Assembly: GCF_964194025.1 (NCBI RefSeq)
Contig: NC_134476.1
Coordinates: 24,924,001-24,988,000 of the forward strand
DNA: 64,000 nt
Origin: Convolutriloba macropyga
Lineage: Eukaryota
Reading direction: 5' to 3'
The notes beneath the pieces were generated by a model. That model ran no database searches. It was not told the origin of the DNA and saw only the letters and a list, made by a program, of their open reading frames with translations. Positions 23,794-62,515 of the stretch are shown here, one piece after another. Numbering within the stretch: the stretch's first letter is position 1; each line of letters begins with the position of its first letter. A program made the position numbers and the translations under genes.

Positions 23794-23900
23794 AAAAACA
23801 AGTTTCAAAATATGCAGTTGTGCATTAATGTGTGCAGTTTTTATAATTTTTAATCAAGAAGGCTACGTGAACTCAACGGAGTATATTCTTCAGAGTAAGA

Positions 23901-24217: not shown

Positions 24218-24341
24218 GTGAGTTCTCTTTCAAGTTGATATTTTATAACAAAAAGTAACTGCATTAAAAGAGTTAAGGAAATTGTTCTAAAAGTAGAGAA
24301 AGCGTTGACTATCTGCGTAAACTGGAGCTTTGATTATTCAG

Positions 24342-24598: not shown

Positions 24599-24663
24599 GT
24601 TAATCAGCTTGCTGTTTTTTTTTTAAATTCATCATTGTTTCGAAAATTCTACATTTTATATAG

Positions 24664-33046: not shown

Positions 33047-33064
33047 TCGTCCGTTCTGTCACCA
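33047..33064 (-). promoter_or_regulatory. Primer binding site
   Basis: TGGTGACAGAACGGACGA directly after the 5' LTR; TGG is complementary to tRNA CCA. The cognate tRNA was not identified. Confidence 0.8.
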
Positions 33065-33628
33065 TATCATGTGCTCAAATATTATGTATTCGCTAGTGGT
33101 TGTTCATTTTGGTTGAAGGCAATTCTAGTTGATCAAATCGATTTGTTTACTCGAGTAAACTCTTTCAAATAAAAACTTTTCTGGCAAGAACGAATACGTT
33201 GCTGAATTAACGATGGTTGTTCACAGCATTACAGCTTCAACAATTTAGCGAACAAAAATTGTGCTGAGCACCTATTACAATTTAACGATTTTTCTGTTAT
33301 TATTCACTATTGGATAGCTTTAGCGGTTTGGATCTTCGAATGGGTGAGTCGACAATCACTTCGACAGCTGAAGATCTTCTCTGGTAAAAACTTTATTTCA
33401 GTAATACAACTGTTTATTAGCGAGCAACTATTTTGTCTGTTACAATTTTAATATCTTGTTATTTACAATCAAATATAGGCAAATATTAAACAGATTTTTC
33501 CAAAGTTGATTGGAATTCAGTAGTAAAGTTCAATTATGTAATAATGTGAACAAAATGATGGCATAATAAGAGTTAGTTAAATAACAGTAAAAGGTCAACG
33601 TTTGAACTTGGGTTTGAGCTACGTCATA
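33065..33628 (-). repeat. 5' LTR
   Basis: Direct repeat of 20390-20953 with about 6 substitutions by eye. Followed on the minus strand by the TGG-PBS. Confidence 0.96.
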
Positions 33629-37055: not shown

Positions 37056-37167
37056 ATGATTCCAGTTACGATCTTCGTTTTTACCTGTTTCGCTTTTGCT
37101 CACGTGAGCGTTCAAGAAACAATTGTCATCGATAGTGGATCAAGATATGTGAAATCTGGTTTGGCAG
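37056..37167 (+). CDS. Divergent actin-like protein, exon 1 (hydrophobic leader plus phosphate-1 motif)
   Basis: AAAATG with an in-frame TAA 12 nt upstream. Translates MIPVTIFVFTCFAFAHVSVQETIVIDSGSRYVKSGLA (actin LVVDNGSGMCKAGFA). Donor G|GTAAAC, phase 1. Confidence 0.85.
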
Positions 37168-38595
37168 GTAAACTTTTTGAATTATTGTTTCAACTCCCAA
37201 CGAAATGGAGATAGGAACTCTATGCCAGCCTCACCTTTTGTATTACGTCAATTTTGGCTGAATTATATCTTTCGCGGAAAAGAGATAGTTGAGATGCTCT
37301 AGCAAAACTGAATCGATTGCTGAAGATATTTCTTCAATTTACCGTTTCTCGAAAAAAAAATGAGGCTTAGAAGTTTCTCAAATTACAAACCTTTTCACAC
37401 TTCGCATGTACATTTTATGAACATTTTAAATACACTTCAATCACATACAACAAACAAATTGATCAAATAGGTTCTTCCACAGAAAATATATCTTTCATTT
37501 CAAGCGTTTACGGTTGTTAAAACGAGGAGAGGTTCAAAATTCATGAAATAGCTTTCGTGTCATTTTCAACTAATAACAATTTAATGCGCCACAAGCTAGA
37601 TTAATTTTAGCTGTTTCTACTATAAAACTTCATTTAAATTTAACGAAAACAGCTACCGGAGAGTACTGTCTAAGATTACAACATAAATCGAGGAAGTAAT
37701 CGATAAACAATTACTTCAACTTTTTGGTAACACTGAGACTACAATTATTTTCACAACATTTTGATTCCTTGTTTTTTTTCTATGCGTCTTTACTTATTTA
37801 TTATGTTCATTTTTAATTAATTTATTGCGATTACTAGGTTTGATAGATTTAGCTGTTATCGACCTTCTCTTGGTTTTTACAACTCAAAGAAGGTCATATC
37901 TCGATGCCTTCACATTTCTCCCTGACTTAGTTCCAAAGCTGTTCCTAGAGTTCCTCGGAATTCCTTGGTGGTGCAAACTTAAAAATGATAGTGAATTTTG
38001 CTATGTATTTTCAAATTATTTTTTGAAAATTTTTGTTATTTCGGGGGTCAATTATATTTCATTAAAAAATGGGTTAACGATTCCGTTTGTACCCCCCCCC
38101 CCCCCAGTAAGTTATGCGCCCCCCATTTACCGAGAACGTGCCATTGCATAGTAAATCATCATGTACAAATATGGCACGAGGGTCTGGGGGGTGCAAATAA
38201 CATGCGCCCACTAAGCTGGATGGAGGGGGGGGGGGGGCACAAAAGGAAAAGACTCAAATTTTTTAATTATTTTTGCAGCAAAAACAACTCCTTTTTTCAA
38301 ATTTGTTAACATTTTCTATCGTTATTGCCTCTAATTGTCTCCATATCTCCGACCAACTTTTGACTAGCCTCTAACTTAGTTGTTCTGTAAACTTTGGCGA
38401 GAAATCATCGGTTTTGAAGACTTCAGTGTCAGATAGATCAGACAAATTAACAACGTTTGCAATTTTTTGGCAGCATTTTGAAAAGTTCTTTTTGACAATT
38501 TCGATTAGTTTTGTCTTCCTCTCAATTCATGTGGTAAATTACACCTTTCTAAGCTCGGAATTGGGCTCTTGCGTAGATAAAAGTCTTTCAATGCT

Positions 38596-41500
38596 AGTGT
38601 ATCCTACCTCCGTTTATCTCTTATATGTCCAGTCAGATTTTTTCAGATGCTAACTTAAAAGTTCTACGTTTTGCGCGACTTAGACCTCTAAAAATTTAGG
38701 TAGACAACACCCTAATATGCTCTTCGGCCTTAGTTAAGCATACAAAAACAAGTTTTCAACAATATTTGTAATTTTGAGAGTCGCACTAATGGTAGCAAAT
38801 AAAGCTCTATATATACATTACAATTCGCACCATGGGCACACAAGTTATGGTCAAAAACGGGAAATCCCTTACCATAAATAATATTGAATTGAAAGTCAAC
38901 AACTTTTGACTTCTTCAATAAAATCAACAAAAATAAAGCGCATCAAGGAAAATAGGTTGAGGGAATGGAAATCAGGAAATGAAAGGGTTTGGGAGGACGG
39001 AAATGTATTTGGGGGGAAGAAAATGTTTGCAAAGCTATTTAATGTTCAATTGAACAGCTCGAAGAGTCTTTAGTATTCATTATTCATTCAGTTCTTTGGT
39101 TTGTATTTCAGGACTCTAATGATGTTTTTATATTTCATCGTCAATCATTTTGTTCTGACATCTCGTTTCGAATCAGCTTTTCTGCATTCATTCCTGCTAT
39201 TAACTGAATAAATTGTGGGTCTGCCGCCTTATTTATACTTATTGTTTATTCATTCGCGTGAATATAGCTTATTGATGGCACACGACTTAGCTCACTCTCA
39301 AAATAATATGTCATTTCTCCAAAAATGAGTTTGCTAGTTGAACTTAATAGACAGTTAGGTTAGTTGAGGATAATATCTTAACCTAATTGAAGCCTAATTG
39401 AGGGTAAAATTAGAGCAGATGATTGTGACAGATTTTAGACATGGTCGAAATTCTAACAAATCTTCACTTCCAATTTTTAGGTCTTTCTTTTGAGACTACA
39501 GCCTTGAAGGCCAAAGCAGCAATATTATCAATCTGTCAGCTCTGTTCTTTTATTCGTTCATCTTCATTTTAATTAGTTTCCATTTAGTGAAGAGAGTTTT
39601 TCTGGTATAATTGGTAACAAAGAACAATTCGAGATAGAATACCAACAAATTGAAAGCTGCTGTCTATTTTTTAAAAAAAATATAACAACCAAAATCATTA
39701 GGTAGACCGTCAAACTATTATAGAACAACTCGCCCAAATCCCAGCGCCAGCCCCACTTTTTCTTATAAACAAAAAGTGTTCAAATTTCGTAGCTTCAAAA
39801 AAGGAAAACTCAGCCTCTAAATAGGACAATAAGCTGAAAATCAATAACAGTTAGCAGTGTACTCTCGGGATCTCTGATAATATACCGCACTAAGACAAGT
39901 CTCCACAGACATATGTCTAAGCCCGGCTTCCTTGTTTTGACATTGCTTATTGACAATTACCGCAATTGAAACATTGAGTAAGGTAACTCAATAACTAATT
40001 GACCCTAAGTGTATCCTACCTCCGTTTATCTCTTATATGTCCAGTCAGATTTTTTCAGATGCTTACTTAAAAGTTCTACGTTTTGCGCGACTTAGACCTC
40101 TAAAAATTTAGGTAGACAACACCCTAATATTTATGCTCTTCGGCCTTAGTTAAGCATACAAAAACAAGTTTTCAACAATATTTGTATTTTTGAGAGTCGC
40201 ACTAATGGTAGCAAATAAAGCTCTATATATACATTACAATTCGCACCATGGGCACACAAGTTATGGTTAAAAACGGGAAATCCCTTACCATAAATAATAT
40301 TGAATTGAAAGTCAACAACTTTTGACTTCTTCAATAAAATCAACAAAAATAAAGCGCATCAAGGAAAATAGGTTGAGGGAATGGAAATCAGGAAATGAAA
40401 GGGTTTGGGAGGACGGAAATGTATTTGGGGGGAAGAAAATGTTTGCAAAGCTATTTAATGTTCAATTGAACAGCTCGAAGAGTCTTTAGTATTCATTATT
40501 CATTCAGTTCTTTGGTTTGTATTTCAGGACTCTAATGATGTTTTTATATTTCATCGTCAATCATTTTGTTCTGACATCTCGTTTCGAATCAGCTTTTCTG
40601 CATTCATTCCTGCTATTAACTGAATAAATTGTGGGTCTGCCGCCTTATTTATACTTATTGTTTATTCATTCGCGTGAATATAGCTTATTGATGGCACACG
40701 ACTTAGCTCACTCTCAAAATGATATGTCATTTCTCCAAAAATGAGTTTGCTAGTTGAACTTAATTGACAGTTAGGTTAGTTGAGGATAATATCTTAACCT
40801 AATTGAGGGTAAAATTAGAGCAGATGAGTGTGGCAGATTTTAGACATGGTCAAAATTCTAACAAATCTTCTTTTCCAATTTTTAGGTCTTTCTTTTGAGA
40901 CTACAGCCTTGAAGGCCAAAGCAGCAATTTTATCAATCTGTCAGCTCTGTTCTTTTATTCGTTCATCTTGATTTTATTTAGTTTCCATTTAGTGAAGAGA
41001 GTTTTTGTGGTATAATTGGTAACAAAGAACAATTCGAGATAGAATACCAACAAATTGAAAGCTCCTGTCTATTTTTTAAAAAAATATAACAACCAAAATC
41101 ATTAGGTAGACCGTCAAACTATTAGAGAACAACTCGCCCAAATCCCAGCGCCAGCCCCACTTTTTCTTATAAACAAAAAGTGTTCACAATTCGTAGCTTA
41201 AAAAAGGAAAACTTAGCCTCTAAATAGGACAATAAGCTGAAAACCAATAACAGTTAGCAGTGTACTCTCGGGATCTCTGATAATATACCGCACTAAGACA
41301 AGTCTCCACAGACATTATGTCTAAGCCCGGCTTCATTGTTTTGACATCGCTTTTTGACAATTACCGCAATTGAAACATTGAGTAAGGTAACTCAATAATT
41401 AATTGATCCTAAGTGTATCCTACCTCCGTTTATCTCTTATAAGTCCAGTCAAGATTTTTTCAGATGCTTACTTAAAAGTTCTACGTTTTGCGCGACTTAG

Positions 41501-42820
41501 ACCTCTAAAAATTTAGGTAGACAACACCCTAATATTTATGCTCTTCGGCCTTAGTTAAGCATACAAAAACAAGTTTTCAACAATATTTGTATTTTTGAGA
41601 GTCGCACTAATGGTAGCAAATAAAGCTCTATATATACATTACAATTCGCACCATGGGCACACAAGTTATGGTCAAAAACGGGAAATCCCTTACCATAAAT
41701 AATACTGAATTGAAAGTCAACAACTTTTGACTTCTTCAATAAAATCAACAAAAATAAAGCGCATCAAGGAAAATAGGTTGAGGGAATGGAAATCAGGAAA
41801 TGAAAGGGTTTGGGAGGACGGAAATGTATTTGGGGGGAAGAAAATGTTTGCAAAGCTATTTAATGTTCAATTGAACAGCTCGAAGAGTCTTTAGTATTCA
41901 TTATTCATTCAGTTCTTTGGTTTGTATTTCAGGACTCTTATGATGTTTTTATATTTCATCGTCAATCATTTTGTTCTGACATCTCGTTTCGAATCAGCTT
42001 TTCCGCATTCATTCCCGCTATTAACTGAATAAATTGTGGTTCTGCCGCCTTATTTATACTTATTGTTTATTCATTCGCGTGAATATAGCTTATTGATGGC
42101 ACACGACTTAGGTCACTCTCAAAATATTATGTCATTTCTCCAAAAATGAGTTTGCTAGTTGAACTTAATTGACAGTTAGGTTAGTTAAGGATAATATCTT
42201 AACCTAATTGAAGCCTAATTGAGGGTAAAATTAGAGCAGATGAGTGTGACAGATTTTAGACATGGTCGAAATTCTATCAAATCTTCACTTCCAATTTTTA
42301 GGTCTTTCTTTTGAGACTACAGCCTTGAAGGCCAAAGCAGCAATTTTATCAATCTGTCAGCTCTGTTCTTACATTCGTTCATCTTCATTTTATTTAGTTT
42401 CCATTTAGTGAAGAGAGTTTTTATGGTATAATTGGTAACAAAGAACAATTCGAGATAGAATACCAACAAATTGAAAGCTGCTGTCTATTTTTTTAAAAAA
42501 ATATATCAACCAAAATCATTAGGTAGACCGTCAAACTATTATAGAACAACTCGCCCAAATCCCAGCGCCAGCCCCACTTTTTCTTATAAACAAAAGTGTT
42601 CAAATTTCGTAGCTTCAAAAAAAGGAAAACTCAGCCTCTAAATAGGACAATCAGCTGAAAGCCAAAAACAGTTAGCAGTGTACTCTCGGGATCTCTGATA
42701 ATATACCGCACTAAGACAAGTCTCCACAGACATTATGTCTAAGCCCGGCTTCATTGTTTTGACATCGCTTTTTGACAATTACCGCAATTGAAACATTGAG
42801 TAAGGTAACTCAATAATTAA
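38596..42820. repeat. Tandem array, three ~1.41-kb units
   Basis: agtgtatcctacctccg recurs at 38596, 40008 and 41412; the units are nearly identical. Confidence 0.95.
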
Positions 42821-45800
42821 AGGTGAAAATCGTGATCTAAGTAAAAAAAACTGATCGAAAACTAAAAAGAAAAAAGCATGCCATAAAGTATTGTATTGAT
42901 ACAATCCGAACAGTTGAATGAAAAAACGAAAATATTGTGCCCAAGTAGCAGACTAAATGACAATCACAGCAGCCAAACAGACAAACGTAGCTTCACAGAA
43001 TCAGAAAAAATAGCATTCCAAGTGTAAATACTTTTATGATCAGTGTGTTAAAACATAAAATTCCCTTGAGTATCTGGGTCCAAAATTTAGAGACAATACT
43101 GATTTAAAAAATTATTGTATGGACAGCACCATGCCAAAAAAGTTACCTAATTCTTCAGCTCCAAAAACATGGAAGTATGAAAATATTCCAAAAACTTCAA
43201 ACAAGAAAATCACAGCGAATTTGTTTTCCTCTTCATACTTATGAATGCCAAACCAAGTTTTCATACTCAATTTCATATAATAAGTAACCTGCATGCTAGC
43301 AGAAAACTTGCTGCACATACAGGGGCAAACAGAAAAGAGAAATAAAAATTGGAAATAGCCAAGAGTACAAGAAATTTGCATATGTTCGCTATGTCCGCAA
43401 AATCAAAAATTCAGCCACTAAAACATACATTGAAAAGTTTCATTGCACCCAACAAAAAAAAAACAAATTTCATAAAACTATGAAAAGGTTTTGATCATAA
43501 TTTTATGAAAATCTGATAAGTCATATTTCTCTGACACCAGACACTATCCAGTAACCAATCTTCCAGCTCTAAGTTCCAAATTGCCACAGTTAATAAGAAA
43601 CCGTTCAAAAATTAATTCACCGGCTCGAGATACAACCCAGTAACACGCCCACAAGTCCCAAAAAGTTATTGCCTCCTAAGGATCAAAAATCTAAATTAAA
43701 AAAGAGCAAAGTATGCAAAAGACCTCAAAATTGGCAAAAATCACTATCATTTTAGGTGTTTAAGTTTGCATTAAGTTTGTGATTAAGTTTATTCATTTTG
43801 ACTTTGTGTTTAAGTCTAAACAATTTAAGTCTTTAAGTTTGTATTAAAACAACATAAAGCACGAAAAAGGGACATAAAAACAGATTATAGATTCCAAAAG
43901 ACCTTAATAAACATCGAAAAGCGTTAAATTAATATCCAACTAATCAAATTCCAGAAAATGTCAAAGACGATGAAAAATTGAACTTTTTGGGCTCAGAACC
44001 ATGTGACCTTTTCATCTTGAAATCAGCCTACCCAGCAGTTTAAGCACTCTAGGCACTTGAATTAAACTACTAAAGCCAGCTCAAGTTTTCCAGCGAAACA
44101 ATGCTCAATGGGCGTTACCTGTTATTCCGTTTTGAGAGCTCTTAAGTCAAGAACTTTTGAAAACAGAAAACAAAAGAAACCCGTAATTTTTGTTCCTTTG
44201 ATTATAGCCTGATCAGAATCAACATTTTAACCTGCCTTCTCCTTGATATCAAATTTTGACATCTCGCTTCAAATCAGCTGCTCTGCGTTCATAGTTTAAT
44301 TGATTGGTTAAATTCCGGGTCTGACGCCGTTTTTACACTTATTAGAGCGAGTTGTTTATTCATTCGCGTGAACTCACCAAAAAAAAGTCATTTCTCTAAA
44401 ACTGACTTGCCAGTTGAACTAAATTGTCGGTAGGGTCAGTTCAGGATAAAATCTTATCCTAAATGAAGCCAAATTGAGGCTCAATTTAGAGCACATGTGT
44501 GACAAATTATAGACATAGCCAGAATTCTATCAAATCTTCCGTTCCCGTTTTTTTAGGTCTTTATTTCGAGCCAGAAGTCTATCAAATTTTCCGTTCCCGC
44601 TTTTTAGGTCTTCCTTTTGAGACTAAAGCCTCGGAAGCTAAAGCAGCAATTTTCAATCTGCCAGCTATTTTCATTTACTTGTTTATCTTCATTTTATCTA
44701 TTTTCCATTCAGTGAAAAAAAATGTTAAGAACAGTTCGAGATAAAATACTAACAATTTGAAAATTTCTGTCGATTTCAAAAAAAAACAATCACGACCAAA
44801 ATAATTAGGTCGACCGTCCAATTTTCATAGAGCAATTCGTTAAAAATCACAACGGCAGCGAAAATTTCTCGAAGTGAAAAAAAATTTCTAATTTTGTAGC
44901 ATCAAAAAATGGCAAACTCAGCCTCTAAATAGAAGAATAAGCTGAAAACTAATAACAGTTAGCAGTGTACTCTCAGGAGTTCTGATAATTTACCGCACTA
45001 AGACAAGTGTTCACAAACAATATCTCTTAGATCCCGAGCTTCATTGTTTTCACATCGCTTTTTGACAATTAGCGCATTTTCGCAAATCTGTTGAACACAT
45101 TGAGTAAAGTAACTCAATATAATCAACGGTGAAAATCGCGATCTAAGTAAAAAAAAACTGATCGAAAACTAAAAAGAAAAAAGCATACCATAAAGTATTG
45201 TATTGATACAATCCGAACAGTTGAATGAAAAACTGAAAACATTGTGCCCAAGCAGCAGACCAAATGACAATCACAGCAGCCAAACAGACAATCATAGCTT
45301 CACAGAATCAGAAAAAAAAGCATTATCAAATAAGCACTTCAAATAAGAATATCATTGCCAAATTGTTTTCTTCAAATTTATGAATGCCAAACCCAGTTTT
45401 TCTTACTCAATTTTATATAACTACTAACTTGCATGCTAGCAGAAAACTTGAGTCACATACAGAGTCAAACAGAAAAGAAATAAAAAGTTGGAAATAACCA
45501 AGAGTATAAGAAATTTGCATATGTTCGCTATGTCCGTGAAACCAGGAGTTCAACCACTAAAACGCGTATTGATAAATACAATTGCCCCCGACAAAGTGAA
45601 AAAACCAATTCCATAAAAATATGAAAAGGTATGAAAAATTCTGATAAGATCGTATTTCTCTGAAGCTAAAAAATATCCAGTAACCAATCTTCCAGCTCTA
45701 AAGTTCCCAACTGCCACAGTTCATAATAGGAAACAGTTCCAAATTAATTCATCGGCTCTCGATACAACCCAGTAACACACCCACAAGTCCAAAAAAGTTT

Positions 45801-48800
45801 AGTGCCTCCTAATAATTGAAAAATCTAAATTAAAAAAAAAGTGAAAGTATGCAAAAGACCTCAAAATTGGCAAAAATCACTATCATTTTAGAGGTGTTTA
45901 AGTTTGCATTAAGTTTGTGATTAAGTTTATTCATTTTGACTGTGTTTAAGTCTAAACAATTTAAGTGTTTAAGTTTGTATTAAAACAACATAAAGCACGA
46001 AAAAAGGACATAAAAAAATTATAGCTTCCAAAAGACCTTAAAAAAATTTGAAAAGCGTTAAATTAATATCCAACTAACCAAATTCCAGAAATTGTCAAGG
46101 ATCATGAGAAATTGAACCTTTCGTGCTCAAGGTAACCTTTTCATCTTGAAATAAGCCTACCCAGCAGCTTCAGCACTCTAGGCACTTGAAATAAACTACT
46201 AAAGCCAGCTCAGGGCTTCCAGCGAAACTCAAAGCCCACTGGGCGTTACCTTTTCATTACGTTTTGAGAGCTCTAAGTCATAAAACTTTTGAAAACAAAA
46301 AACAAGAGAAACCCATAGTTTTCGTTCCTTTCATTATAGCCTGATCATTTTCATTATAGCCTGATCAGAGTCAACATTCTAATCTGCCTTCTCGCTGATA
46401 TCAAACTTTTCCATCTCGCTTCAAATCAGCTTTTCTGCGTTCATTGTGTAATTCATTGGTTAAATTGCGGGTCTGACGCCATTTTTACACTTATTAGAGC
46501 GAGTTGTTTATTCATTTGCGTAAACTCACAGAAAAAATTCATTTCTTTAAAACAAAATTTTGCCAGTTGAACTAAATTGTCGGTTAGGTCAGTTCAGGAT
46601 CAAATCTTAACTTAATTGAAGCCAAATAGGGGGCAAAATTTAGAGCACATGTGTAATAGATTATAGACAAAGCCAGAAATCTATCATATTTTCCGTTCCC
46701 ATTTTTTGGTCTTCGTTTCGAGACTACAGCCTCGGAAGCTAAAGCAGCAATTTTCTCTCAATCTGCCAGCTATTTTCATTTAACTCGTTAACTTTCATTT
46801 TCTGTTTTCTATTCAGTGAACAATGTTTTTGTGGTATAATTGGCAACAAAGAACAATTCGAGATATAATACCAACTATTTGAAAACTTATGTCTAATTTG
46901 AAAAAACATTAGCGACCAAAATCATTAGTTTGACCGTTATAGAGCAGTTCTGAAAACTCAAAACGACAGCCAAAATTTTATAGAGCAGTTCTGAAAACTC
47001 AAAACGACAGCCAAAATTTTTCTAAGTGACAAAAAAGTTCTAATTTCGTAGCTTCAAAAAATGGCAAATTCAGCCTCTAAATAGAAGAATAAGCTGAAAA
47101 CCAATAACAGTTAGCAGTGTATTCTCAGGAGTTCTGATAATTTACCGCACTAAGACAAGTGTTCACAAACATTATCTCATAGATCCCGAGCTTCATTGTT
47201 TTCACATCGCTTTTTGAGAATTACCGCATTTTCGCAAATCTGTTGAATCAATGATAGCTTCTGGTCAGTTGAAACATTGAGTGAGGTAACTCAAAAATCA
47301 AAGGTGAGAATCTTGATCTGAACAAATAAACTAATCGAAAAATAAACAGAAAAAAGCATACCATAAAGTATTGTATTGAGATACAATCCGAAGTTGAAAG
47401 AAAAATCGAAAATATTGTGCCCAAGCAAAAGACCAAATGACAATCACAGCAGCCAAACAGACAATCATAGCTTCACAGAATCAGAAAAAAGCATTATCAA
47501 ATAAGCACTTCAAATAAGAATATCATTGCGAAATTGTTTTCTTCAAATTTATGAATGCCAAACCCAGTTTCTCTTACTCAATTTTATATAACTACTAACT
47601 TGCATGCTAGCAGAAAACTTGAGTCACATACAGAGTCAAACAGAAAAGAAATAAAAAGTTGGAAATAACCAAGAGTATAAGAAATTTGCATATGTTCGCT
47701 ATGTCCGTGAAACCAGGAATTCAACCACTAAAACGCGTATTGATAAATACAATTGCCCCCGACAAAGTGAAAAAACCAATTCCATAAAAATATGAAAAGG
47801 TTTGAAAAATTCTGATAAGATCGTATTTCTCTGAAGCTAAACAATATCCAGTAACCAATCTTCCAGCTCTAAAGTTCCCAATTGCCACAGTTCATAATAG
47901 GAAACAGTTCCAAATTAATTCATCGGTTCTCGATACAACGCAGTAACACACCCACAAGTCCAAAAAAGTTTACTGCCTCCTAAGAATCGAAAAATCTAAA
48001 TTAAAAAAAAGAGAAAGTATGCAAAAGACCTCAAAATTGGCAAAAATCACTATCATTTTAGGTGTTTAAGTTTGCATTAAGTTTGTGATTAAGTTTATTC
48101 ATTTTGACTTTGTATTTAAGTCTAAACAATTTAAGTGTTTAAGTTTGTATTAAAACAACATAAAGCACGAAAAAGGGACATAAAGAAATTATAGCTTCCA
48201 AAAGACCTTAAAAAAATTTGAAAAGCGTTAAATTAATATCCAACTAACCAAATTCCAAAAATTGTCAAGGAACATGAGAATTTGAACCTTTCGTGCTCAA
48301 GGTAACCTTTTCATCTTGAAATCAACTTGAAAAAAACTACTAAAGCCAGCTCAGGGCTTCCAGCGAAACTCAAAGCCCACTGGGCGTTACCTTTTCATTA
48401 CGTTTTGAGAGCTCTAAGTCATAAAACTTTTGAAAACAAAAAACAAGAGAAACCCATAGTTTTCGTTCCTTTCATTATAGCCTGATCAGAGTCAACATTC
48501 TAATCTGCCTTCTCGCTGATATCAAACTTTGCCATCTCGCTTCAAATCAGCTTTTCTGCGTTCATTGTGTAATTCATTGGTTAAATTGCGGGTCTGACGC
48601 CATTTTTACACTTATTAGAGCGAGTTGTTTATTCATTTGCGTAAACTCACAGAAAAAATTCATTTCTTTAAAACAAAATTTTGCCAGTTGAACTAAATTG
48701 TCGGTTAGGTCAGTTCAGGATCAAATCTTAACCTAATTGAAGCCAAATAGGGGGCAAAATTTAGAGCACATGTGTAATAGATTATAGACAAAGCCAGAAA

Positions 48801-51800
48801 TCTATCATATTTTCCGTTCCCATTTTTCGGTCTTCGTTTCGAGACTACAGCCTCGGAAGCTAAAGCAGCAATTTTCTCTCAATCTGCCAGCTATTTTCAT
48901 TTAACTCGTTATTATTCATTTTCTCTGTTTTCTATTCAGTGAAGAATGTTTTTGTGTTATAATTGGCAACAAAGAACAATTCTAGATATAATACCAACTA
49001 TTTGAAAATTATGTCTAATTTGAAAAAACATTAGCGACCAAAATCATTAGTTTGACCGTCAAAATTTTATAGAGCAGTTCTGAAAACTCAAAACGACAGC
49101 CAAAATTTTTCTCTAAGTGACAAAAAAGTTCTAATTTCGTAGCTTCAAAAAATGGCAAACTCAGCCTCTAAATAGAAGAATAAGCTGAAAACCAATAACA
49201 GTTAGCAGTGTATTCTCAGGAGTTCTGATAATTTACCGCACTAAGACAAGTGTTCACAAACATTATCTCATAGATCCCGAGCTTCATTGTTTTCACATCG
49301 CTTTTTGAGAATTACCGCATTTTCGCAAATCTGTTGAATCAATGATAGCTTCTGGTCAGTTGAAACATTGAGTGAGGTAACTCAAAAATCAAAGGTGAGA
49401 ATCTTGATCTGAACAAATAAACTAATCGAAAAATAAACAGAAAAAAGCATACCATAAAGTATTGTGTTGAGATACAATCCGAAGTTGAAAGAAAAATCGA
49501 AAATATTGTGCCCAAGCAACAGACCAAATGACAATCACAGCAGCCAAACAGACAACCATATCTTCACAGGATCAGAAAAAAAAGCATTCGAAGTTTAAAA
49601 ACTTTATGATCAGTGTGTTAAAAATCAAGATCCCCTTGAGTATCTGGGTCCAAAATTTTAGGACAAAACTGATGTCAAAATTAATGTATGGACAGCACCA
49701 AGCTGAAAAAAGTTAAGTAATTCTTCAGCTCCACAAATACGGAAGAAAGAAAACATTCCAAAACTTCAACCAAAAAAATTTGCGAATTTGTTTTCCTCTT
49801 CATACTTATGAAAGCCAAACCAAGTTATCTTACACAATTTTATAAAAACAACTATCTTGCATGCTAGCAGAAAACTTGCCGCACATACAGAGGCAAACAG
49901 AAGAGAAATAAAAAATTGGAAATAACCAAGAGTACAAGAAAAATGAAAATGTTCGCTATGCCCTCGAAACCAAAAACTCAGCCACTAAAACACATTGAAA
50001 AGCTTCATTGCACCCAAAAAGTGAAAAAACGAATTTCATAAAATTATGAAAAGGTTTTGATCATAATTTTATGAAAATCTAATAAGATCATATTTCTCTG
50101 ACACTAGACACTATCCATTAACCAATCGTCCAGCTGTAAAAATTCCAAATTGCCACAGTTAAAAGAAACCGTTCAAAATTAATGCATCGGCTTTAGATAC
50201 AACCCAGTTACACATCCACAAGTCCCAAAAGGTTATTGACTCCTAAGGATCGAAAAATTAAATTAAAAAGAACAAAAGTATGCTAAAGAATCAAAATTGT
50301 CAGAAATCACTATCATTTTAGATGTTCAAGTTTGCATTAAGTTTGTGTTTAAGTTTAATCATTTTGACTTTGTTTAAGTTTAAACAATTTAGGTGTTTAA
50401 GTTTGTATTAAAACAGCATTAAGCACGAAAAACGGACATAAAAACAAATTATAGCTACCGAAAGACATTAACAAACTTCGAAAAGCGTTAAACTAACATC
50501 CAACTAACCAAATTCCAGAAAATGTCAAAGACCATGAAAAATCGAACCTTTTAGGCTCGGAATTATGTGACCTTTTCATCTTGAAATCAGCCTACCCACC
50601 AGTTTCAGCACTCTAGGCACATGAAATAAACTACTAAAGCCAGCTCCGGTTTTCCAGTGAAACTTACTGACCACTGGGCGTTACCTGTTCATTACGTTTT
50701 GAGAGCTCTTAAGTCATGAAAGAACTTTTGAAAACAAAAAACGAGAAACCCATAATTTTCCTTCCTTTCATTATAGCCTGATCAGAATCAACATTCTAAT
50801 CGGCCTTCTCATTGATATCAAATTTTTACATCTCGCTTCAAATCAGCTTGTCTGCGTTCATTATTTATTTGATTGGTTAAATTCCGGGTCCGACGCCATT
50901 TTTGCACTTATTAGAGCGAGTTGTTTTCATTCGCGCGACCTCACCCAAAAAAAATTCATTTCTAAAATTGACTTTTGCCAGTTGAACTAATTTGTCGGTT
51001 AGGTCAGTTCAGGATGAAATCTGAAGCCAAATTGGGGGCAAATTTAGAGCACATGTCTGACAGATTATAGACATAGCCAGAACTCCATCAAATTTTCCGT
51101 TCACGTTTTTAGGGGTCTTCTCAAGACTACAGCCGCGGAAGCTGAAGCAGCCACTTTCTCTCAATCTGCCAGCTATTTTCATTTAACTCGTTTATTTTCA
51201 TTTTCTCTTTTGCATTCAGAGAAGAATTTTTTCGTGGTATAATTGGCAACAAAGAACAATTCGAGATACAAAACCAACTATTTGAAAATTTCTGTCTATT
51301 TTCAAAAAACAACAACGACCAATATCATCAGTTTGACCGTCAAAATTTTATAGAGCAATTCGTAAAAAATCACAACGACAGCCAAAACTTTTCTAGGTAG
51401 CTCCGAAAAATGGCAAACTCAGCCTCCAAAAAGGAGGATAAACTGCAAATCAATAACAGTAAGAGAGGTACTCTCACAACTTATCGCACTAAGTCAAGTC
51501 TTCACAAAACATTAAGTCTTAGTGCCCAGACTTCATTGTTTCCATTTCCTTGGACATATGCAAAAATCTGCTGACCAATGAAAAATCCCGCTCAGTTGGA
51601 ACAATGAGTGAGATATCTCAAAAAGCAAACGTGAAAGTCGTGACCTAATTAAAACAAAATGATCAAAAAATAAAACCAAATGAAAAAGCATACTACGGCG
51701 TCCTGAAATACAATCGGAAGAGTTGAATGAAAAATTGATAACTGCTGTGCCGAAGAAGCAGACCAATTGACAATCACAGCAGCCAAACAGGCAATCAAAG

Positions 51801-53250
51801 CTCCACAAAATCAGAAAAATAGCATTCGTAGTTTATATACTTTCATGATCAGTGTGTGTCAAATACCGAGATTCGCTGGAGTTTCTGGTTTCGAAATTTT
51901 AAGACGAAATTGTGATGTAAAAATTTTTGTATAGACAGCACAAGCTCAAGCTGAAAAAAGTTATTCAATTCTTCAGCTCTACAAACACGAAAGTATGAGA
52001 ACATGAAAACATTCCAAAAACTTCAAAGAAGATCATTGCAATTTTGTCTTAATCTTCATACTTATGAACACAAACCCAAATTTTTTTTTAACTCAAATCT
52101 ATATAACAACTTATGAGCAGGCTAGAAGAAAACTTGATGCACATACAGAGGCAACCAAAAAAAAAGAAAACAGAATATGGAAATAACCAAAAAAAAAACA
52201 AGCATGTCGCTAATGTTCTTGACGCTATGACCGCAAAACCAAAAATTCAGCTATTAAATCACACACTAAAAAATTCATTGCCCCGGCATTGAAAAAAATT
52301 TCACAAAATTATGAATAATTACAACAATTTCTGATAACACGATCATTTCTTTGTCTCTAGAAACTATCCAGTAACCAATCTTCCATCACCAAAAAATATC
52401 ATTGTCCCCTACAGATAAAAAACAACAAGTCAAAGTTGCCGCAGTTCATGATCGGAACACGTTTAAACATGTTCTCTTGGCTATAGATACTATCCAGTAA
52501 CAAATCAACAGGGCCCAAAAAAGGTATTAACTCCTAAGGATCTAAAAGTTTAAAATCAAAGTAACAAACATTCAAATGACCTCAAAAAAGGGCAAATATC
52601 ACTATCATTTCAGGTGTTTAAGTTTGCATTAGAACAACATAGAGCACGAAAAACGGACACAAAAAGAAGGAATTATAGCTTGCAAAAGACCTTAATGAGC
52701 CTTGAAAAGCGTTAATTTATTATCCAACTAACTGAGTTCCAGAAGATGACAAAACCGTGGAAAAATTGAACTTTTCAGGTTCACAAACAACAAGTGACGT
52801 TTTCATCTTTAATTAAGCCTACCCAGCAGGTTCAACCCCAGTCGATTTCGAATGGTTATCTTGCAAGATTCTGGCAGATTCTGCCAGAATCTTGCAAGAT
52901 AACCATTTTTCTGCCAGAATCTTGCAAGATAACCATTTTTCTGCCAGAATCTTGCAAGATAGGCAGTTTTTGCAAGATTCTGGCAGAATCTTGCAAGATA
53001 ACCATCTGGTCTCGACTGGGGAACACTCTAAGCACTTGGAATAAACTACTAAAGCCAGCTCAGGGCTTCGAATGAAACTTAATGCGCAGTGGACGTTAAC
53101 TGCTTATCACGCTTTGAAAGCTCTAAGTCATGGAAGAATTTCTGAAAACAGAAAACAAGAGAATCCAATAGTTTTCGCTCCTTTTACTCTAGCGTGATTA
53201 AAATCACCATTCTAATTTTACTTCTCATTGATATCGAAATTTCAAGATCT
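42821..53250. repeat. Tandem array, about 4.7 units of ~2.1-2.3 kb
   Basis: Unit start ggtga(a/g)aatc.tgatct recurs at about 42821, 45128, 47303, 49394 and 51630, with shared internal blocks such as cactatcattttaggtgtttaagtttgcattaag. Confidence 0.92.
52836..53021. mobile_element. 186-bp MITE-like insertion with TIRs and internal 30-bp repeats
   Basis: TIRs CCCCAGTCGA...TCGACTGGGG flanked by AA/AA, with repeated palindrome ATCTTGCAAGAT. It is absent from the same site (cccagcagcttcagcactcta) in the other array units. Confidence 0.88.
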
Positions 53251-53678
53251 CAAAAAAGACAGCCCCCTCTCCCTAATACAAAACAAGCCCTCTGATTCAA
53301 AGTCCCTTAGACAAATTGCACATTAAAAAAAATCAACATATCCCCAAAGATGTTTCAGTTTTTACAGATTTTTTCAATTCTAGTTAGCAATTGCATTAAC
53401 TAGATTTTCTTGTATCATCAAAAATTTCACACTCCAAGATCGAGTTTCCCCTTCACCGGTAGAGCGAGCTCATCTCTAATTGATAATCTTCTTCCTTTCT
53501 AATGGCATTTATAAACTGAAATGTAGCCTCGCACCTTTTATTAGTATGTTTTAAAACTAGTGTCCGCGCAAAAAATTGTCCGTTTTGTTTGCTTACACAG
53601 TTTACCTAATACAAAAATTTTATTCGCTGGGGAAAAAGAAGGAGTTCTGAACAGTCAATGATGAGTTGCAATGTTTAG

Positions 53679-53854
53679 AAGACGAGAGACCACGATCTAT
53701 AATGTCAAATGTGATCGGAGAGTCAAAAACGAATGATTGGGGCTTTTACAATCAGCAGATCTATGTTGGAAATGAGGCAGAGAGCCATAGGAGTATACTT
53801 AACCTCAAGTACCCAATGTCAGATGGATACATTAAATATCCGGACAAAATGAAA
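53679..53854 (+). CDS. Actin-like protein, exon 2
   Basis: Acceptor tgtttag|. EDERPRSIMSNVIGE...IYVGNEAESHRSILNLKYPMSDGYIKYPDKMK corresponds to actin DDAPRAVFPSIVG...[22 protein letters not shown]. Donor |GTACTG, phase 0. Confidence 0.9.
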
Positions 53855-54133
53855 GTACTGTAAAAAGTCCATAATTCAATTTTGTTTGTAAACTCAATGC
53901 AGTGCTGATTCACCCGCCATTAACATGATATCTTTGAACTCTTTGTTAGAAATGAAAAGGTTGCAGTCAAGTGTGACAATAAATAGCTCGAGCAGATAGC
54001 ATCCTAGGCAACTTTATTGGTTATTTCAGCGGTAATGTTGTTTAGAAGCATATGAAGAAGCGTATTTCAGTCGTGTTAGAGATCGATCTACGTGTCCTGG
54101 TTTTTCTTTTTATAAATAATTACAAATGTTTAG

Positions 54134-54215
54134 ATTGTTTGGGAACACATTTTCGAAGAGGAGCTGCGCATCAGCCCTTCACAAGGACCTGTTACCCTCA
54201 CTTACGCTCCTTTGG
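54134..54215 (+). CDS. Actin-like protein, exon 3
   Basis: tgtttag| IVWEHIFEEELRISPSQGPVTLTYAPL |GTAAGT; corresponds to actin [26 protein letters not shown]. Confidence 0.92.
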
Positions 54216-57200
54216 GTAAGTATGCATCAATTCATGTCATATTCAACAATCTTACCATAGTCACACCGTTTGCCATACTGTGCTATACGCCAGCAACCAC
54301 CCTCGTGTTTTATCTCGAATCAGACTTTATCTAGACTCAAGGACAAAATCAAATTTCAAGTTCTGGACTACATTTGGAAATACACCCAGCAGTCTGGACA
54401 CAGATATCCAGCAACAGACAAGTAATCTACTCAATTGTTAATTGATTTAAACTGACTCTGTTCTGATTCAACTCACCAAATAATGCCAAAATGAGCTTTT
54501 TAAATATTTAATTGTCAAAGGCTCAAAAATGAAAATTCTTTTTTATATTGACCAAATTTTTTCTGGATTGAACAGCCAAACCAACTGTAGTTGCAGTCCT
54601 TACAAGTCGAATAGGTCGAATTTCTAAAGCGATGCGGGGTTTAATTTAATCGTTTAATTGTGACCAAAAATTGCTCAACGCAATTGAGATTAGAACTAAT
54701 TTCTAAAAAGTTGAACAATTGGAGCTATGTGCCACAGAAAACAAGCAGAAATTTTAAACAGAAAGTTAACAACTTTTTGCGCTTTTATCCGTGAAAAAAG
54801 ACACCACTCCTATGTGATTTGACATTAAACAAGGTGACTCGGTAATGTGCGATCTCACATAAGGTTCCGACCCCGCTCATCCACAAATTTGGCTTGATTG
54901 TCTACCAAATGAGGAACATAGAAAAACCAAAAAATTCAAGTTTTTTAAAAAAAAATTGGCCTATGAACGAAAAGAAAGTCTCCAAAGCAAATAACTGTGG
55001 TGGAGTAAAAATGGCGCATTACATTGATGAGATGTGCAAATATTAAGAAAGCGAGTCAAGACGAACAGCAAAATCAAACAACAGCAACAACAAAAATTAA
55101 TTACATCAAAAACTTCATGTCCGTTTTAAAAAATAAAACTTAATAACTAAGTCAAAATACAGTCAGATAAAACTCATATTAAACAATATAACTTTTAATT
55201 CACCAGAAAAGATAAGGGAGTAGTCAATAAAAAGGCTTGGTAACAATTAGACAATAAAGAACAAAAACAGTAAAATTTAAAAATTCGCTTATTCTTTTTA
55301 AAAAAATTAATTTCGAATAATGAAAACCATTAGAAATCAAATAAAATATCCCATAGGTGTACGATTACCAATGCTTCCATAGAAGAAATTAAGAGCTGCC
55401 GGTATTCAATTTTTTACGCGGTTACAAAAAGAACATATAGACAACAAACAAAAAATCAAATAAAACGTGGCAGAATACGCTTTCGAAACCGTAAAGCCAT
55501 ACTATGGCCATCAAAATGTGTTCAATCGCACTTTATGCAACCACCGATAATGTATTATGTGACCTCTCATTAATGAAGCTAGGTAACAAGTAGACAAAAA
55601 AGGAAAACCAAATGCAAAAATAAGTAACACTTAAATTTTTTTCGAAAAAAAATATTTCCAAAGACATGAACGCCATTAATTACAGAATAAAAAATTAATT
55701 AGGTTTGTATATTCTTCCAAAAGAAGCCCATAAGAATTTAAATTATACAGAATATGTCTTATGTCTACAAAACGAACGTGACAAACATGACAAAAATCAA
55801 AAATTAATTTACTTTTTTTTCGTGTCGAAGCCTGTAAAGTCAACGAATTCTTTAAAAACATTAATTGCGTGACACTAATCCCCTTTTGAAACCTTCTTTT
55901 GACAACAATAAAGTCATAATTGGCCTGTAATTAACGAGACTAGATAACAACCAGACAATAAAAGGAACAAAATTGCGAAGTTAAAAGTGTTCTTTTTAAA
56001 TTTGGACAATTTGTTTTCAGAGTGATGAAAGCTATCATCTATCTACTAAAATCAGAAGATCGTCTCATCTATTCCTCCACAAAAAGGCAATGAAACGGGG
56101 TCATTGTACAGTAAAACTTCATACGACTAAAAAGACAAAGTAAAAACGGCAGTAAAAGAGAATTTAAAATCAATCAAATTTTTCGAGAAAGTAGTGTCGA
56201 CGCCATTAAAATCATAATCTATATCCTCAAGCATTTTAATACTATCAATTGTGCCTTATTTTGAAAGCCAATATTGTGATATATAAACTGCCAATAACGT
56301 GATAATGTGACAAAACTAGAAAACGTGAAAAATGGGCAAATAACTAAAAGTTAAGAAAATTTGAAATCTAGTTGTATCAAAGCCAATAGCTATAACTTAA
56401 GCGGTAAAACCTCAATAAGGATTAAATTTTATTTTAATAGAAAGAAGAAGCATTCTTTCATTGCGGATAATAAGCTACAAGTTGACCAAAGAAAGAGAAA
56501 AATAGAGGCAAAAGTTCAATAAGTCATTAATTATTTGAAAATCAAATACTTTTAAAAGTCAAAACGACCATAAGCTTCCAAGTAATCAACTAGATAAAAT
56601 AATGTGGAGCTAATTAGGATCCCAATTGGAACTATCATTAGTGAGCTTTTTTGAAATGTTCCGTTATTTAATTATTGTAGAAGAGATCGTGTTTTTTTTA
56701 TAAAAAAAAGACCGACTGTTTACAATCCGAATTATTTTTGTATTATACCAGTCCATGATTGGTCCAAATTAAGCCCTGCTAATGCTGTTTGTTCTTTAAG
56801 AACACTTAATTATTCGAATGTTATATATATTGACTTTTTGTCAATTAAAAAAAAATCAAAAATAGATGCTGCGTGTTTGATAATCAACGAATAAATTTAG
56901 CAAAAAACGGCGAAGTTTTAATTACAGAGCACTCTCAACGGAGTTTGAAGTAAAAAAGCCCCCTTTTGAGTCTACAAAAATTGCGTTAGTGGTGTTTGGG
57001 TCTGTACTTCCTGTAAATTTAATCAAAATGGACTAAATAAACTTATTTCGTGCTGTGGAAAAACTAACTCGAGGTAGAAAGCTGATAACTCTATTTAACG
57101 TCAATAGATTGAAAATTATCAAATCAATGTTAACCATAAAAATTGAACTCTCATGTATTTGGAACTAAATTTAAAAAACGCGTATTTCCGGGGAAGAAAA

Positions 57201-57268
57201 AAAAATAAATTCAATCAGAACAATTTGTAAATTATAACGAACTAGCACGAGGTTAATTTCAATTTCAG

Positions 57269-57493
57269 CCGCAAGTGCAATGACGGACCGCATGCGTTCC
57301 ATCATGCTGAACATGGGCGCACCTTCGGTAACTCTGGTAAACACGGCTCTCATGACACTCCGATTCTCTGGAAGAGAGACTGGCCTAGTAATTGAGACAG
57401 GTAGCCAAGGCACATTTGTGGTCCCGGTCTATCAAGGCTCCCCGATTGACTCTGCCACTGTTAAAGTTGACGTCGCCGGACAAGATATCTCAA
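57269..57493 (+). CDS. Actin-like protein, exon 4
   Basis: atttcag| ...FSGRETGLVIETGSQGTFVVPVYQG...VDVAGQDIS |GTTAGT; corresponds to actin [25 protein letters not shown]...LDLAGRDLT. Confidence 0.92.
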
Positions 57494-58042
57494 GTTAGTT
57501 CCGGATTTGTCCAAAATCTCAAGAATCTCATTTTTTGCAGATTTTAGTTCCAGTACCTTGAGCAATTATTGGAACACTTGCGCATAACGTGAAGAGAGGA
57601 TATAGTCTACTATGTACCCAATCAGGTGAGGAGTGGAAAGATCCGATGTTTGCAATCAACGCGTGAATGAGACAACTCATACCAACATGATTTCTTTCCT
57701 AACATCCTTTTGAGCAAGGCCAAACTTAATTGCTAAATGAGTTTTGTCTCATAAAATTCCTTAATGTGTATCTGTTATTCAGGCCCCTTTTAAACATTTC
57801 AGTCATTCTGTGACTCAATAGCATAGACCCATCAAATTAAGAACCCAATTTATCCACCTTCATAGCGTTATAGGCACTCATGAAAACAGCAACTTGTCTT
57901 AAGCAGCAACCTCAAAAAAGAACGATTGTGGTAACTTTTGCGGTAGTAAAAGTAACTTTTGGGATACTAGCAAATAACTTTTGGGCAAGTATTAATAACT
58001 TTTGCAGAAGAAATAACTCGCTCTTTTTTTGTTTGCTTCCAG

Positions 58043-58506
58043 TATACTTGACAAAACTTCTACAAGAAGAGGGCACCAGTCTGATGTCAATGGGTGCCGA
58101 TTCAGCCATCATCGATGACATCAAAGCCAAAGTGTGCTACGTTGCCCAAAACTACGAAACCGAATCGGCGTCCATAGTCCTATACGAGATGCGTTGGGGT
58201 GACATAGTCCCAATTGGCGACGCCCAGTTCAAAGCACCAGAGCTTCTGTTCCAGCCTTATCTGAATGGAATAGAAAGCGTCGGTTTGATCGAAGCTGTAT
58301 CCTACGCAATCAACTATTGCGACTCTTCAATCCAAGGCCAACTTTGGGCTAACATTGTCCTAGGAGGCGGGAACTCCATGCTTAATGGACTAGCGGAGCG
58401 TCTTGATTCCGATCTCTCAGCACTGACTAGATATGCAGTCAATATTTATGCTTTGGATGGCAGAGATGTATCCGCTTGGAAAGGTGCTGCAGATTTCAGT
58501 TATTGA
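58043..58506 (+). CDS. Actin-like protein, exon 5 (last). Spliced CDS is 1059 nt, 352 aa
   Basis: Acceptor tgcttccag|. IIDDIKAKVCYVA, FKAPELLFQP, LWANIVLGGGNSMLNGLAERL and SAWKGA match actin [44 protein letters not shown] and SVWIGG. Stop at 58504-58506. Confidence 0.93.
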
Positions 58507-61500: not shown

Positions 61501-62515
61501 AGCTTTACTTTGGAGTGAGAGCAATAGAGATCACTCAAAAATGAAGAGCAAAAGCGTGAAAAGTCACCTGAGAAGTCAAAGAATGTTCCAGAAGAAAAGC
61601 GCAAAAACGGTCAACTGAAAAATTTGCATAAGACCAACCCGTTTACAATCATTGCTGAACTTCGTTTAAGAGCAATTAAAAAGAGCTACTGACAATAACC
61701 ACGAATACCGCAATACAGCTCCACTCAGCTGACAGCTTCGCAGCTATAAAACAATGTGATCCCCAGTTTCCTATTAATTAATCATAATTGAGAACACGGC
61801 GCATTTGTTTCTTACAGTGGTTTAAATGGGAGTCGAGTTGATAAAATCATAAATGTTAAAAGACGCCAATCTGTGTGGAGCAGCGGCGAAGAAGAAACAT
61901 TGATCAGGCAGATAGTGCATTAAAAAACTGAACTCGATTATTAGCCAAACCTTTCTCGAGTAAACAATGAAGATTCTGTTCCCCTTCGTTCAAAACCAAG
62001 CAGGAGTTACACGGTGCTGCAATCACTTTCCACCTATTGATATTGAAATAAGTCAAATTCTTTTCAACAATGCCCGTGATAAGACCCGCCAGAGTCCTCT
62101 GAATAACACTCGTAATCCCTAACTGACTTCGTCTCCCTGATTATGTTTACCATTAATTTGTGTGAACGAACTAACGCTAGTTTTTGTCCGAAAACCGCAG
62201 TCCGGCTATCGAGGCCAAGCCGCGACCAGCGCCCATTGGCCCGCCAAGGACAATTTAGAATATGGGTATAATAAGTCACTTGACCTCATTTTCCAAGTTC
62301 AGCTTGCTTGCCTATCGGCTTACTTGACCGTCAGCTTTCAATTTACATAAACCATTATAAAGGCGTGATATGTCAATAATTTATGCTCGTATTTTAGGTA
62401 AGGGCAGGATTTAATTCCCATTATAAATGGGGAAGCATTCATATTTTCATATTAAGCTCATAAACGTATCGTTAGTAAATTTCTCCTCAGTTCAAGCAAC
62501 TGCTAAACCACTCAC

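What the first reader, a model, noticed from the sequence alone, without database searches (positions are those of the whole stretch)
37056..58506. Intact divergent actin-like gene that starts with a signal-peptide-like leader: a possibly secreted actin
The first ATG follows an in-frame stop and has good AAAATG context. It encodes MIPVTIFVFTCFAFAHVSV directly before the actin fold (QETIVIDSGS): a hydrophobic core with a plausible AFA|H or VSV|Q cleavage site, replacing actin's acidic N-terminus. Actins and Arps are cytosolic or nuclear and lack signal peptides. All five exons join in frame without stops, which argues for selection. Inference: an actin fold exported to the secretory pathway, e.g. 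as a decoy, scavenger, or mucus or immune protein. Caveat: the n-region has no basic residue.
Basis: partly seen in the sequence, partly recalled or inferred. Interest (0 to 1): 0.85.

Follow-up and report, generated by a model that had tools for sequence, protein, structure and literature searches.

The report
Signal-peptide actin family in acoel worm
This intact gene belongs to a family of divergent actin-like genes in an acoel worm, and all 12 first exons found for the family start with a hydrophobic leader predicted to be an export signal, so actin, normally confined to the cell interior, has likely been re-routed for secretion.

Summary
Five GT-AG exons give a 352-aa protein identical to RefSeq XP_075253378.1, labelled 'actin-6-like [Convolutriloba macropyga]'. 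The predicted fold is actin (TM 0.90).

All 12 family first exons found in this genome carry an ATG-led hydrophobic leader with a (-3,-1) cleavage site. None of 6 non-family actin/Arp hits does, and only 0.4-0.7% of control sites do. An intron-less, probably transcript-derived orthologue from another organism (P0008) keeps the leader. The family is one clade (100/100).

All 8 full-length members lose actin's C-terminal tail, Q137, D154, G158, K336 and the N12 sequon, and are acidic, but keep the phosphate-1 loop.

Best reading: a likely secreted, ATPase-dead, non-cytoskeletal actin family (ER entry about 0.8). A structural role in gland secretions such as sagittocysts is a hypothesis (about 0.35). 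No signal-peptide predictor, RNA data or protein data could be tested. Nine literature searches found no signal-peptide actin family, and the scan had not noted one.

The parts
37056..37100 (+). Codons 1-15: predicted signal peptide (uncharged run of 15 residues, A-F-A|H cleavage site)
   Evidence: pLDDT 63-68 over residues 1-20, outside the fold
37056..37167 (+). Exon 1: leader plus actin phosphate-1 loop (D11, G13, S14, K18 kept; N12 lost); ends at a phase-1 donor also present in the genome's conventional actins
37168..53678 (+). Intron 1, 16,511 nt, GT-AG, largely filled by about 1.4-kb and 2.1-2.3-kb tandem repeat units
53679..53854 (+). Exon 2: subdomain 2 with degenerate D-loop and H73 replaced; PF00022 E 4.2e-6
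54134..54215 (+). Exon 3
57269..57493 (+). Exon 4: Q137T, D154E, D157S, G158Q, H161F (phosphate-2 loop altered); PF00022 E 2.5e-11
58043..58506 (+). Exon 5: subdomains 3 and 4, G301/G302 kept, K336D; stop about 27 residues before actin's end; no KDEL or hydrophobic tail; PF00022 E 5.4e-25
58586..58734 (+). Two AATAAA hexamers (58586, 58729), candidate polyadenylation signals
   Evidence: motif match only

Best explanation
The gene encodes an actin-fold protein with a hydrophobic N-terminal leader that likely sends it into the ER and is predicted to be cut after Ala15, releasing an acidic protein that has likely lost ATP hydrolysis and normal filament contacts and would serve as a matrix or structural component of gland secretions. 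Shown: the intact gene, the actin fold model, the family-wide leader, the single clade, and the shared residue and tail losses. Inferred: translocation and cleavage (about 0.8); loss of hydrolysis, possibly with nucleotide kept as a structural cofactor (about 0.8); origin by one gain of a leader on a divergent cytosolic actin resembling the leaderless paralogue on C6 (about 0.6); a role in gland products such as sagittocysts, rhabdoids or mucus (about 0.35 for extrusomes specifically).
For: LEADER. Present in 12 of 12 family first exons (length 20-32 aa, best KD9 2.42-3.30, each with a (-3,-1) site). Absent in 0 of 6 non-family actin/Arp hits and 0 of 14 chance pattern hits; null rate 0.43-0.71%. 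Longest uncharged run is 9-16 in 11 of 12 (20 in one), short for a membrane anchor. T is most frequent at codon position 2 in 7 of the 8 leaders tested (tied with position 3 in one of them; highest at position 3 in C2). The leader has no indels among three C12-type paralogues whose flanking UTR and intron are full of gaps. FOREIGN ORTHOLOGUE. P0008 (354 aa on a 1157-nt JGI contig, best genome match 60-63%) runs unbroken across two intron positions and keeps a leader. MATURE DOMAIN. In 8 of 8 full-length members: Q137T, D154E, G158 replaced, K336 acidic, N12 (an N-G-S sequon in the nucleotide cleft of actin) removed, tail lost. Among 51 other actin-like proteins, Q137 is kept in 27, N12 in 38, and the tail is missing in 2. 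Mature pI is 4.21-4.84, against 5.24-5.66 for three actins of this genome. No KDEL, GPI-like or transmembrane tail. dN/dS 0.43 between the closest paralogue pair. Seven complete intact genes. Clade support 100/100. [quoted passage not shown]
Against: No SignalP-class predictor was available; my test is a hydropathy plus (-3,-1) heuristic with its threshold set from the family itself. No RNA evidence was seen for the window gene's first exon. Six of 12 leaders, including this one, lack a basic n-region residue. Leader dN/dS between C12a and C12b is 0.74 on 20 codons, which is not clearly constrained. Conventional actin is an obligate client of cytosolic TRiC (10.1101/2022.07.25.501395, abstract start), so ER folding needs an untested change. 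Individual substitutions are not unique to the family (T137 in 9 of 51, E154 in 10 of 51 outgroup proteins). The structure model used an actin-rich alignment; the single-sequence fold failed (pLDDT 34). Nothing links the family to any cell type. Lost filament contacts argue against a canonical polymer.
Confidence: 0.62

Rival explanations
1. The leader is an uncleaved reverse signal-anchor (N-out, C-in) that tethers a dead actin domain to the cytosolic face of the ER or vesicles, as an Arp-like adaptor.
For: Half of the leaders lack an N-terminal basic residue. The C12-type leaders are followed by KK. The domain would stay near TRiC and ATP. The phosphate-1 loop is kept.
Against: Uncharged runs are 9-16 residues in 11 of 12, with small-residue cleavage sites (A-x-A at 13-15 in three genes). 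Strong acidification and loss of the cleft sequon fit a luminal location better.
Confidence: 0.12
2. Secreted, but as a soluble mucus or defence protein (nucleotide binder, microbe binder, or decoy for actin-targeting toxins and effectors) rather than a structural component.
For: Same export evidence as the best explanation. Leaderless extracellular actin binds bacteria in Anopheles (PMC13763760, passage). These acoels lack major immune signalling pathways (PMC12849515, abstract). Paralogues are diverse (33-51% identity between main lineages).
Against: The D-loop is degenerate, Y143/Y169 are mostly replaced, residues 349-375 are gone, and R177 is kept in only 2 of 8 full-length members, so actin mimicry looks lost. 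No actin gene appears in the 4 held supplements of the Vibrio-challenge paper (weak, not all files are held).
Confidence: 0.16
3. The leader is not translated: it is the pyrimidine tract of an intron before a short upstream exon, and the protein is an ordinary cytosolic non-canonical Arp.
For: The leader is T-rich (44% against 25% in the rest of the CDS) with AG at 37107 and 37115. C12-type genes have a strong TTYCAG 15 nt before the Asp codon. One family intron ends in AAG.
Against: Needs 12 chance ATG-led open hydrophobic frames at 0.7% each (at least 6 deep lineages). No AG position or phase is shared by all 8 leaders tested. P0008 has the leader in an intron-less frame. RefSeq uses this start.
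Confidence: 0.05
4. A secreted reproductive protein (sperm, seminal or egg-capsule), as divergent Arps in other animals are often testis-biased.
For: Non-canonical Arps such as Drosophila Arp53D are testis-enriched (PMC8291977, abstract start). The family is fast-evolving and duplicated.
Against: No expression data. Known testis Arps are intracellular and leaderless (recalled).
Confidence: 0.05

Closest known systems
Conventional actin (PF00022; best PDB sequence hit Acanthamoeba actin-1 4efh_A, E 4e-69; best fold hit 3ci5_A)
   Same: Fold (TM 0.90, rmsd 1.6 A); D11, G13, S14, K18, G156, K213, G301, G302; two intron positions shared with this genome's actin L006; 37-38% identity
   Different: Hydrophobic leader in place of the acidic N-terminus; Q137T, D154E, G158, K336 and H73 changed; D-loop degenerate; residues ~349-375 missing; pI 4.6
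Lineage-specific non-canonical Arps (Drosophila Arp53D, ciliate tArp, sponge HdA6)
   Same: Divergent, lineage-restricted actin duplicates
   Different: Those are described as intracellular (abstracts or passages seen); none is reported with a signal peptide
Extracellular actin (Anopheles immune actin, DAMP actin, sponge spicule axial-filament actin)
   Same: Actin fold acting outside the cytosol
   Different: Those are conventional actins released without a signal peptide (PMC13763760, passage); here a dedicated family carries one
Secretory-pathway members of the actin/Hsp70/sugar-kinase superfamily (BiP, ecto-NTPDases; recalled, not tested)
   Same: Actin-like ATPase fold works in the ER lumen or outside the cell
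   Different: Separate ancient families; this one is 30-38% identical to true actin and derives from it
Leaderless divergent actin on G000 C6 (L034/L035)
   Same: Probable sister gene (93/90); shares the 7-residue subdomain-4 deletion and two introns
   Different: No leader; keeps Q137, D154, G158 and the C-terminal tail

Membership tests
Actin family (PF00022) | Profile match and actin fold | tested here: met
   Exon hits to PF00022; AF2 pLDDT 93.7, Foldseek TM 0.90 to actin
Conventional actin | High identity to actin (about 80% or more; threshold recalled) | tested here: not met
   37-38% to this genome's actins
Conventional actin | Hydrolysis and phosphate-2 residues Q137, D154, D157, G158; H73 | tested here: not met
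   T, E, S, Q and D in the window protein; 137/154/157/158 changed in 8 of 8 members
Conventional actin | Filament contacts: D-loop and C-terminal tail | tested here: not met
   D-loop degenerate; tail absent in 8 of 8
Conserved Arps (Arp1-10) | Groups with a conserved Arp clade | tested here: inconclusive
   Separate 100/100 clade away from this genome's Arp1-like gene; Arp2-Arp10 were not put in the tree, but the best hits are actins
Classically secreted proteins | Short hydrophobic core plus (-3,-1) cleavage site at the N-terminus | tested here: met
   Heuristic test: 12 of 12 genomic leaders and P0008
Classically secreted proteins | Basic n-region | tested here: inconclusive
   6 of 12 leaders; absent in the window gene
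Classically secreted proteins | No retention signal or further transmembrane segment | tested here: met
   C-termini of 8 full-length members inspected; hydropathy of the window protein peaks only in the leader
Classically secreted proteins | SignalP score, translocation, cleavage, release | not testable with these tools
   No predictor, RNA or proteomic data
Sagittocyst or rhabdoid components | Expression in the gland cells; presence in the extrusome; co-distribution across acoels | not testable with these tools
   No other acoel genome or expression data could be searched

The most novel reading that the evidence does not exclude
Convolutid acoels turned actin into a family of secreted building proteins. 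A dozen signal-peptide actins fold in the ER without TRiC and co-assemble, by contacts other than those of F-actin, into the filament core or fibrous cortex of the needle-like sagittocysts or other gland extrusomes. This would be a dedicated extracellular actin material.
Probability: 0.3. Interest if true: 0.95.

Novelty: new variant of a known kind. Interest (0 to 1): 0.82.

Why it matters
Actins and Arps are treated as cytosolic or nuclear, and extracellular actin is described as puzzling precisely because it lacks a signal peptide (PMC13763760, passage). A selected, multi-gene family with export leaders would be a counter-example.

It gives a natural test of which features make actin depend on TRiC, because these proteins would have to fold in the ER. 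The family-wide changes (tail loss, Q137T, D154E) point to candidates.

It also supplies named molecular candidates for acoel gland products such as sagittocysts, whose composition was not given in the passages I read. The gene is mis-summarised as 'actin-6-like' in the public annotation.

Tried and rejected
EXPRESSION. The sequencing-run search listed no RNA holder. The four runs laid were DNA-type contigs with no splice joints in exon 1. Neither says anything about expression.

STRUCTURE AND LANGUAGE MODEL. The single-sequence fold failed (pLDDT 34) and was replaced by the alignment-based model. ESM Atlas returned only generic actin clusters for the whole protein and for P0008 residues 1-45, so it was no use as a signal-peptide proxy.

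HOMOLOGUE SEARCHES. The metagenome contig scan gave 11 loci at 28-39% identity, generic actins or Arps, and did not return the contigs of P0008 or P0002. Three word-based protein searches found only P0001, P0002 and fragments of the family; absence of other acoel members there is weak evidence.

UNFINISHED GENE MODELS. My spliced aligner invents junk exons where true ones are missing, so the 5' parts it proposed for C16b, C16c, C12c, C1960, C10, C16d, C4497 and C6b were discarded. No first exon was found for six 3' pieces (C12c, C16b, C16c, C3167, C4497, C6:55.48 Mb), so their leader state is unknown. Five genes with leaders (C192, C12d, C16d, C10, C1960) are assigned by exon-2 similarity and were not completed.

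READINGS REJECTED. Mitochondrial targeting (no Arg-rich amphipathic stretch); ER retention (no KDEL); pseudogene (open frame, purifying selection in paralogues); the V-S-V|Q cleavage site. No complex prediction was run.

LITERATURE. Searches found no signal-peptide actin family. PMC12050087 (review) has 0 occurrences of 'secreted' or 'signal peptide'. Passages of PMC8519440, PMC12146513 and PMC8097308 were irrelevant. Subscription journals are not covered. Earlier scan notes: none bearing.
Full report
1. Observation. The five exons lie at 37056-37167, 53679-53854, 54134-54215, 57269-57493 and 58043-58506, with GT-AG introns, and join to 352 aa without stops. The product is identical to P0001, which NCBI lists as XP_075253378.1 'actin-6-like [Convolutriloba macropyga]'. 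A spliced alignment driven only by a 40%-identical foreign protein recovers the same exons, including the 16.5-kb first intron. Exons 2, 4 and 5 match PF00022. An alignment-based AlphaFold model has mean pLDDT 93.7, with residues 1-20 at 63-68. Its best Foldseek hit is actin at TM 0.90, rmsd 1.6 A. The alignment was actin-rich, so this shows compatibility with the fold rather than independent proof.

2. It is a family. Searches of G000 with the last exon, P0001 and P0008, two degenerate patterns and an exon-2 query led to 12 first exons: the window gene, C2, C8a, C8b, C16a, C16d, C12a, C12b, C12d, C192, C10 and C1960. Seven give complete intact genes of 338-364 aa. Five are assigned by exon-2 similarity and were not completed. 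Six further 3' pieces had no first exon in the DNA I fetched. Examples of leaders are MISTFSLCIASIFSLIGLSC (C8a), MIVAFKILIAAFALA (C12b) and MTKYFHVLAFLSLCCLAVS (C10).

All 12 first exons have an ATG 20-32 codons before the first strand, a best 9-residue hydropathy of 2.42-3.30 and at least one (-3,-1) site; 6 have K or R in the first 7 residues. Of the 30 pattern hits examined, 10 were family, 6 were other actins or Arps and 14 were chance matches; none of the 20 non-family hits passes. The same test passes at 428 of 100,000 random positions and 74 of 10,386 positions behind acceptor-like sites. The threshold was set by the weakest family member, and paralogues are not fully independent, but the main lineages are only 33-51% identical.

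3. A second organism. In the HMMER scan of 1.84 billion representatives, P0008 was the only top-scoring hit whose match covers the leader (residues 2-348; 40%; 281 bits). It starts MTLIINILILYATCVKLCSS and is the only protein on record from a 1157-nt JGI contig. Its best match in G000 is 60-63%, and it pairs with the C2 gene at 100/98. It crosses both intron positions of C2 without a break, so it is probably a spliced transcript of another species; I could not see its DNA. P0002 (1063-nt contig, 5'-truncated) is a second foreign member.

4. Is the leader only a pyrimidine tract? It is T-rich and contains AGs. However, no AG position is shared by all 8 leaders tested, T is most frequent at codon position 2 in 7 of 8 (tied in one), and position -3 of the ATG is a purine in 8 of 8, as in four conventional actins. 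Three C12-type leaders align without gaps while their UTRs and introns do not. Against this, leader dN/dS for C12a/C12b is 0.74 on 20 codons (mature part 0.41; whole gene 0.43). That is loose, as expected for signal peptides, but not positive evidence. No RNA could be checked.

5. The mature domain changed with the leader. In 8 of 8 full-length members D11, G13, S/T14, K18, G156, G301 and G302 are kept, while Q137 is T, D154 is E, D157 and G158 are replaced, H161 is F, T303 is N and K336 is acidic. The D-loop is short or unrelated, and the chain stops just after the SAWxGA motif, removing actin residues ~349-375. Among 51 other actin-like proteins the tail is missing in 2, Q137 is kept in 27 and N12 in 38. 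N12 forms an N-G-S glycosylation sequon inside actin's nucleotide cleft, and its loss suits ER passage. This is weak, because the leaderless C6 gene has lost it too.

Mature pI is 4.21-4.84, against 5.24-5.66 for three actins of this genome and a median of 5.56 in the outgroup. No member ends in KDEL or a hydrophobic tail. The roles of these residues (Q137 in hydrolysis; D-loop and tail in filament and profilin contacts) are established knowledge, recalled.

6. Origin. The 10 family rows form one clade: SH-aLRT 100 in a quick 52-row tree and 100/100 in a careful 31-row tree, for which I dropped 21 outgroup rows for time. The nearest row is a leaderless divergent actin on C6 (93/90; long-branch attraction possible). 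It keeps Q137, D154 and the tail but shares a 7-residue deletion and two intron positions with the family and, for the introns, with conventional actin L006. The simplest history is duplication of a cytosolic actin, one gain of a leader, loss of cytoskeletal features, and expansion before the split from the organism that gave P0008.

7. Mechanism. Most likely the leader is recognised by SRP, the chain enters the ER, signal peptidase cuts after Ala15, and an acidic, hydrolysis-dead actin fold passes to secretory granules (about 0.8). A cytosol-facing anchor is the main rival, but 11 of 12 uncharged runs are only 9-16 residues. Actin is an obligate TRiC client (10.1101/2022.07.25.501395 and 10.1101/2021.03.26.436673, abstract starts), so ER folding is a real open problem.

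For function, mimicry of actin is disfavoured because the recognised surfaces are lost. I favour a matrix or structural role in gland products. The named species has gland cells with rhabdoids and sagittocysts (PMC13650328, passage). [quoted passage not shown] A multi-gene family of acidic proteins also recalls ciliate extrusome matrix proteins (recalled). No data here tie the family to these cells.

8. Comparison and novelty. It is a member of the actin family by profile and fold, but not a conventional actin, and it does not group with the Arp1-like gene tested. Known extracellular actin lacks a signal peptide (PMC13763760, passage). Nine searches of the open literature found no signal-peptide actin family; subscription journals and some supplements were not seen. 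The scan had no related note. Two unrelated unnamed proteins, P0101 and P0093, also put hydrophobic leaders on actin folds but keep the tail and fall outside the clade, so the step may have happened more than once.

Verdict: a real, selected, apparently undescribed family; a new variant of a known kind; interest 0.82.

Noticed in passing
P0101 (413 aa, ENA, 9.7-kb contig) and P0093 (419 aa, Logan): Two unrelated actin-family proteins with N-terminal hydrophobic leaders (P0101 has a basic n-region and a bacterial-style leader). Both keep the C-terminal tail and fall outside the acoel clade; possible independent signal-peptide actins.
   Followed up: partly
G000:C6:72460990-72474200 (L034, L035): Leaderless divergent actin (about 50% to actin), probable sister of the family. 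Its ATG is preceded by an open, hydrophobic but ATG-less stretch, which hints at how a leader could arise from upstream T-rich DNA.
   Followed up: partly
window 20500-33450, - strand: LTR retroelement: gag-like ORF, RT, RNase H and integrase split over several frames, a long env-like ORF with no Pfam hit (21728-23713), and matching direct repeats near 20531 and 33206. Observed only.
   Followed up: partly
window 5900-8300, - strand: Fragmented LINE-type element (RT Pfam hit at 6241-6882).
   Followed up: no
window 38600-53200: Intron 1 is filled by three ~1.4-kb and about five 2.1-2.3-kb related tandem units, 97-99% identical within each set.
   Followed up: no
L122, L157, L160 (C12d, C10, C1960): These three paralogues have a GC donor (GCAAGT) at the conserved first intron.
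   Followed up: no
G000:C16:1869500-1913000 (L025-L028): Divergently oriented near-identical copies; the minus-strand copy has exons 3-6, but no exons 1-2 were found in the fetched DNA.
   Followed up: partly
G000:C10:58632027 (+) and 58658896-58662500 (-): First two exons and a family-like last exon lie on opposite strands 27 kb apart: an inversion, an assembly issue or two genes.
   Followed up: no
P0007, P0163 (ENA fragments): Near-identical variants of the window gene with two changes in exon 5 and one in exon 4, probably alleles.
   Followed up: no
L019 (G000:C1:70055188-70058574): Intron-less actin-like frame of 828 codons with a long acidic low-complexity extension before the actin domain.
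   Followed up: no
window 61900-62711, - strand: Short coding-looking exons of another gene (resembles a vacuolar sorting/RING protein by eye, recalled); no Pfam hit.
   Followed up: no
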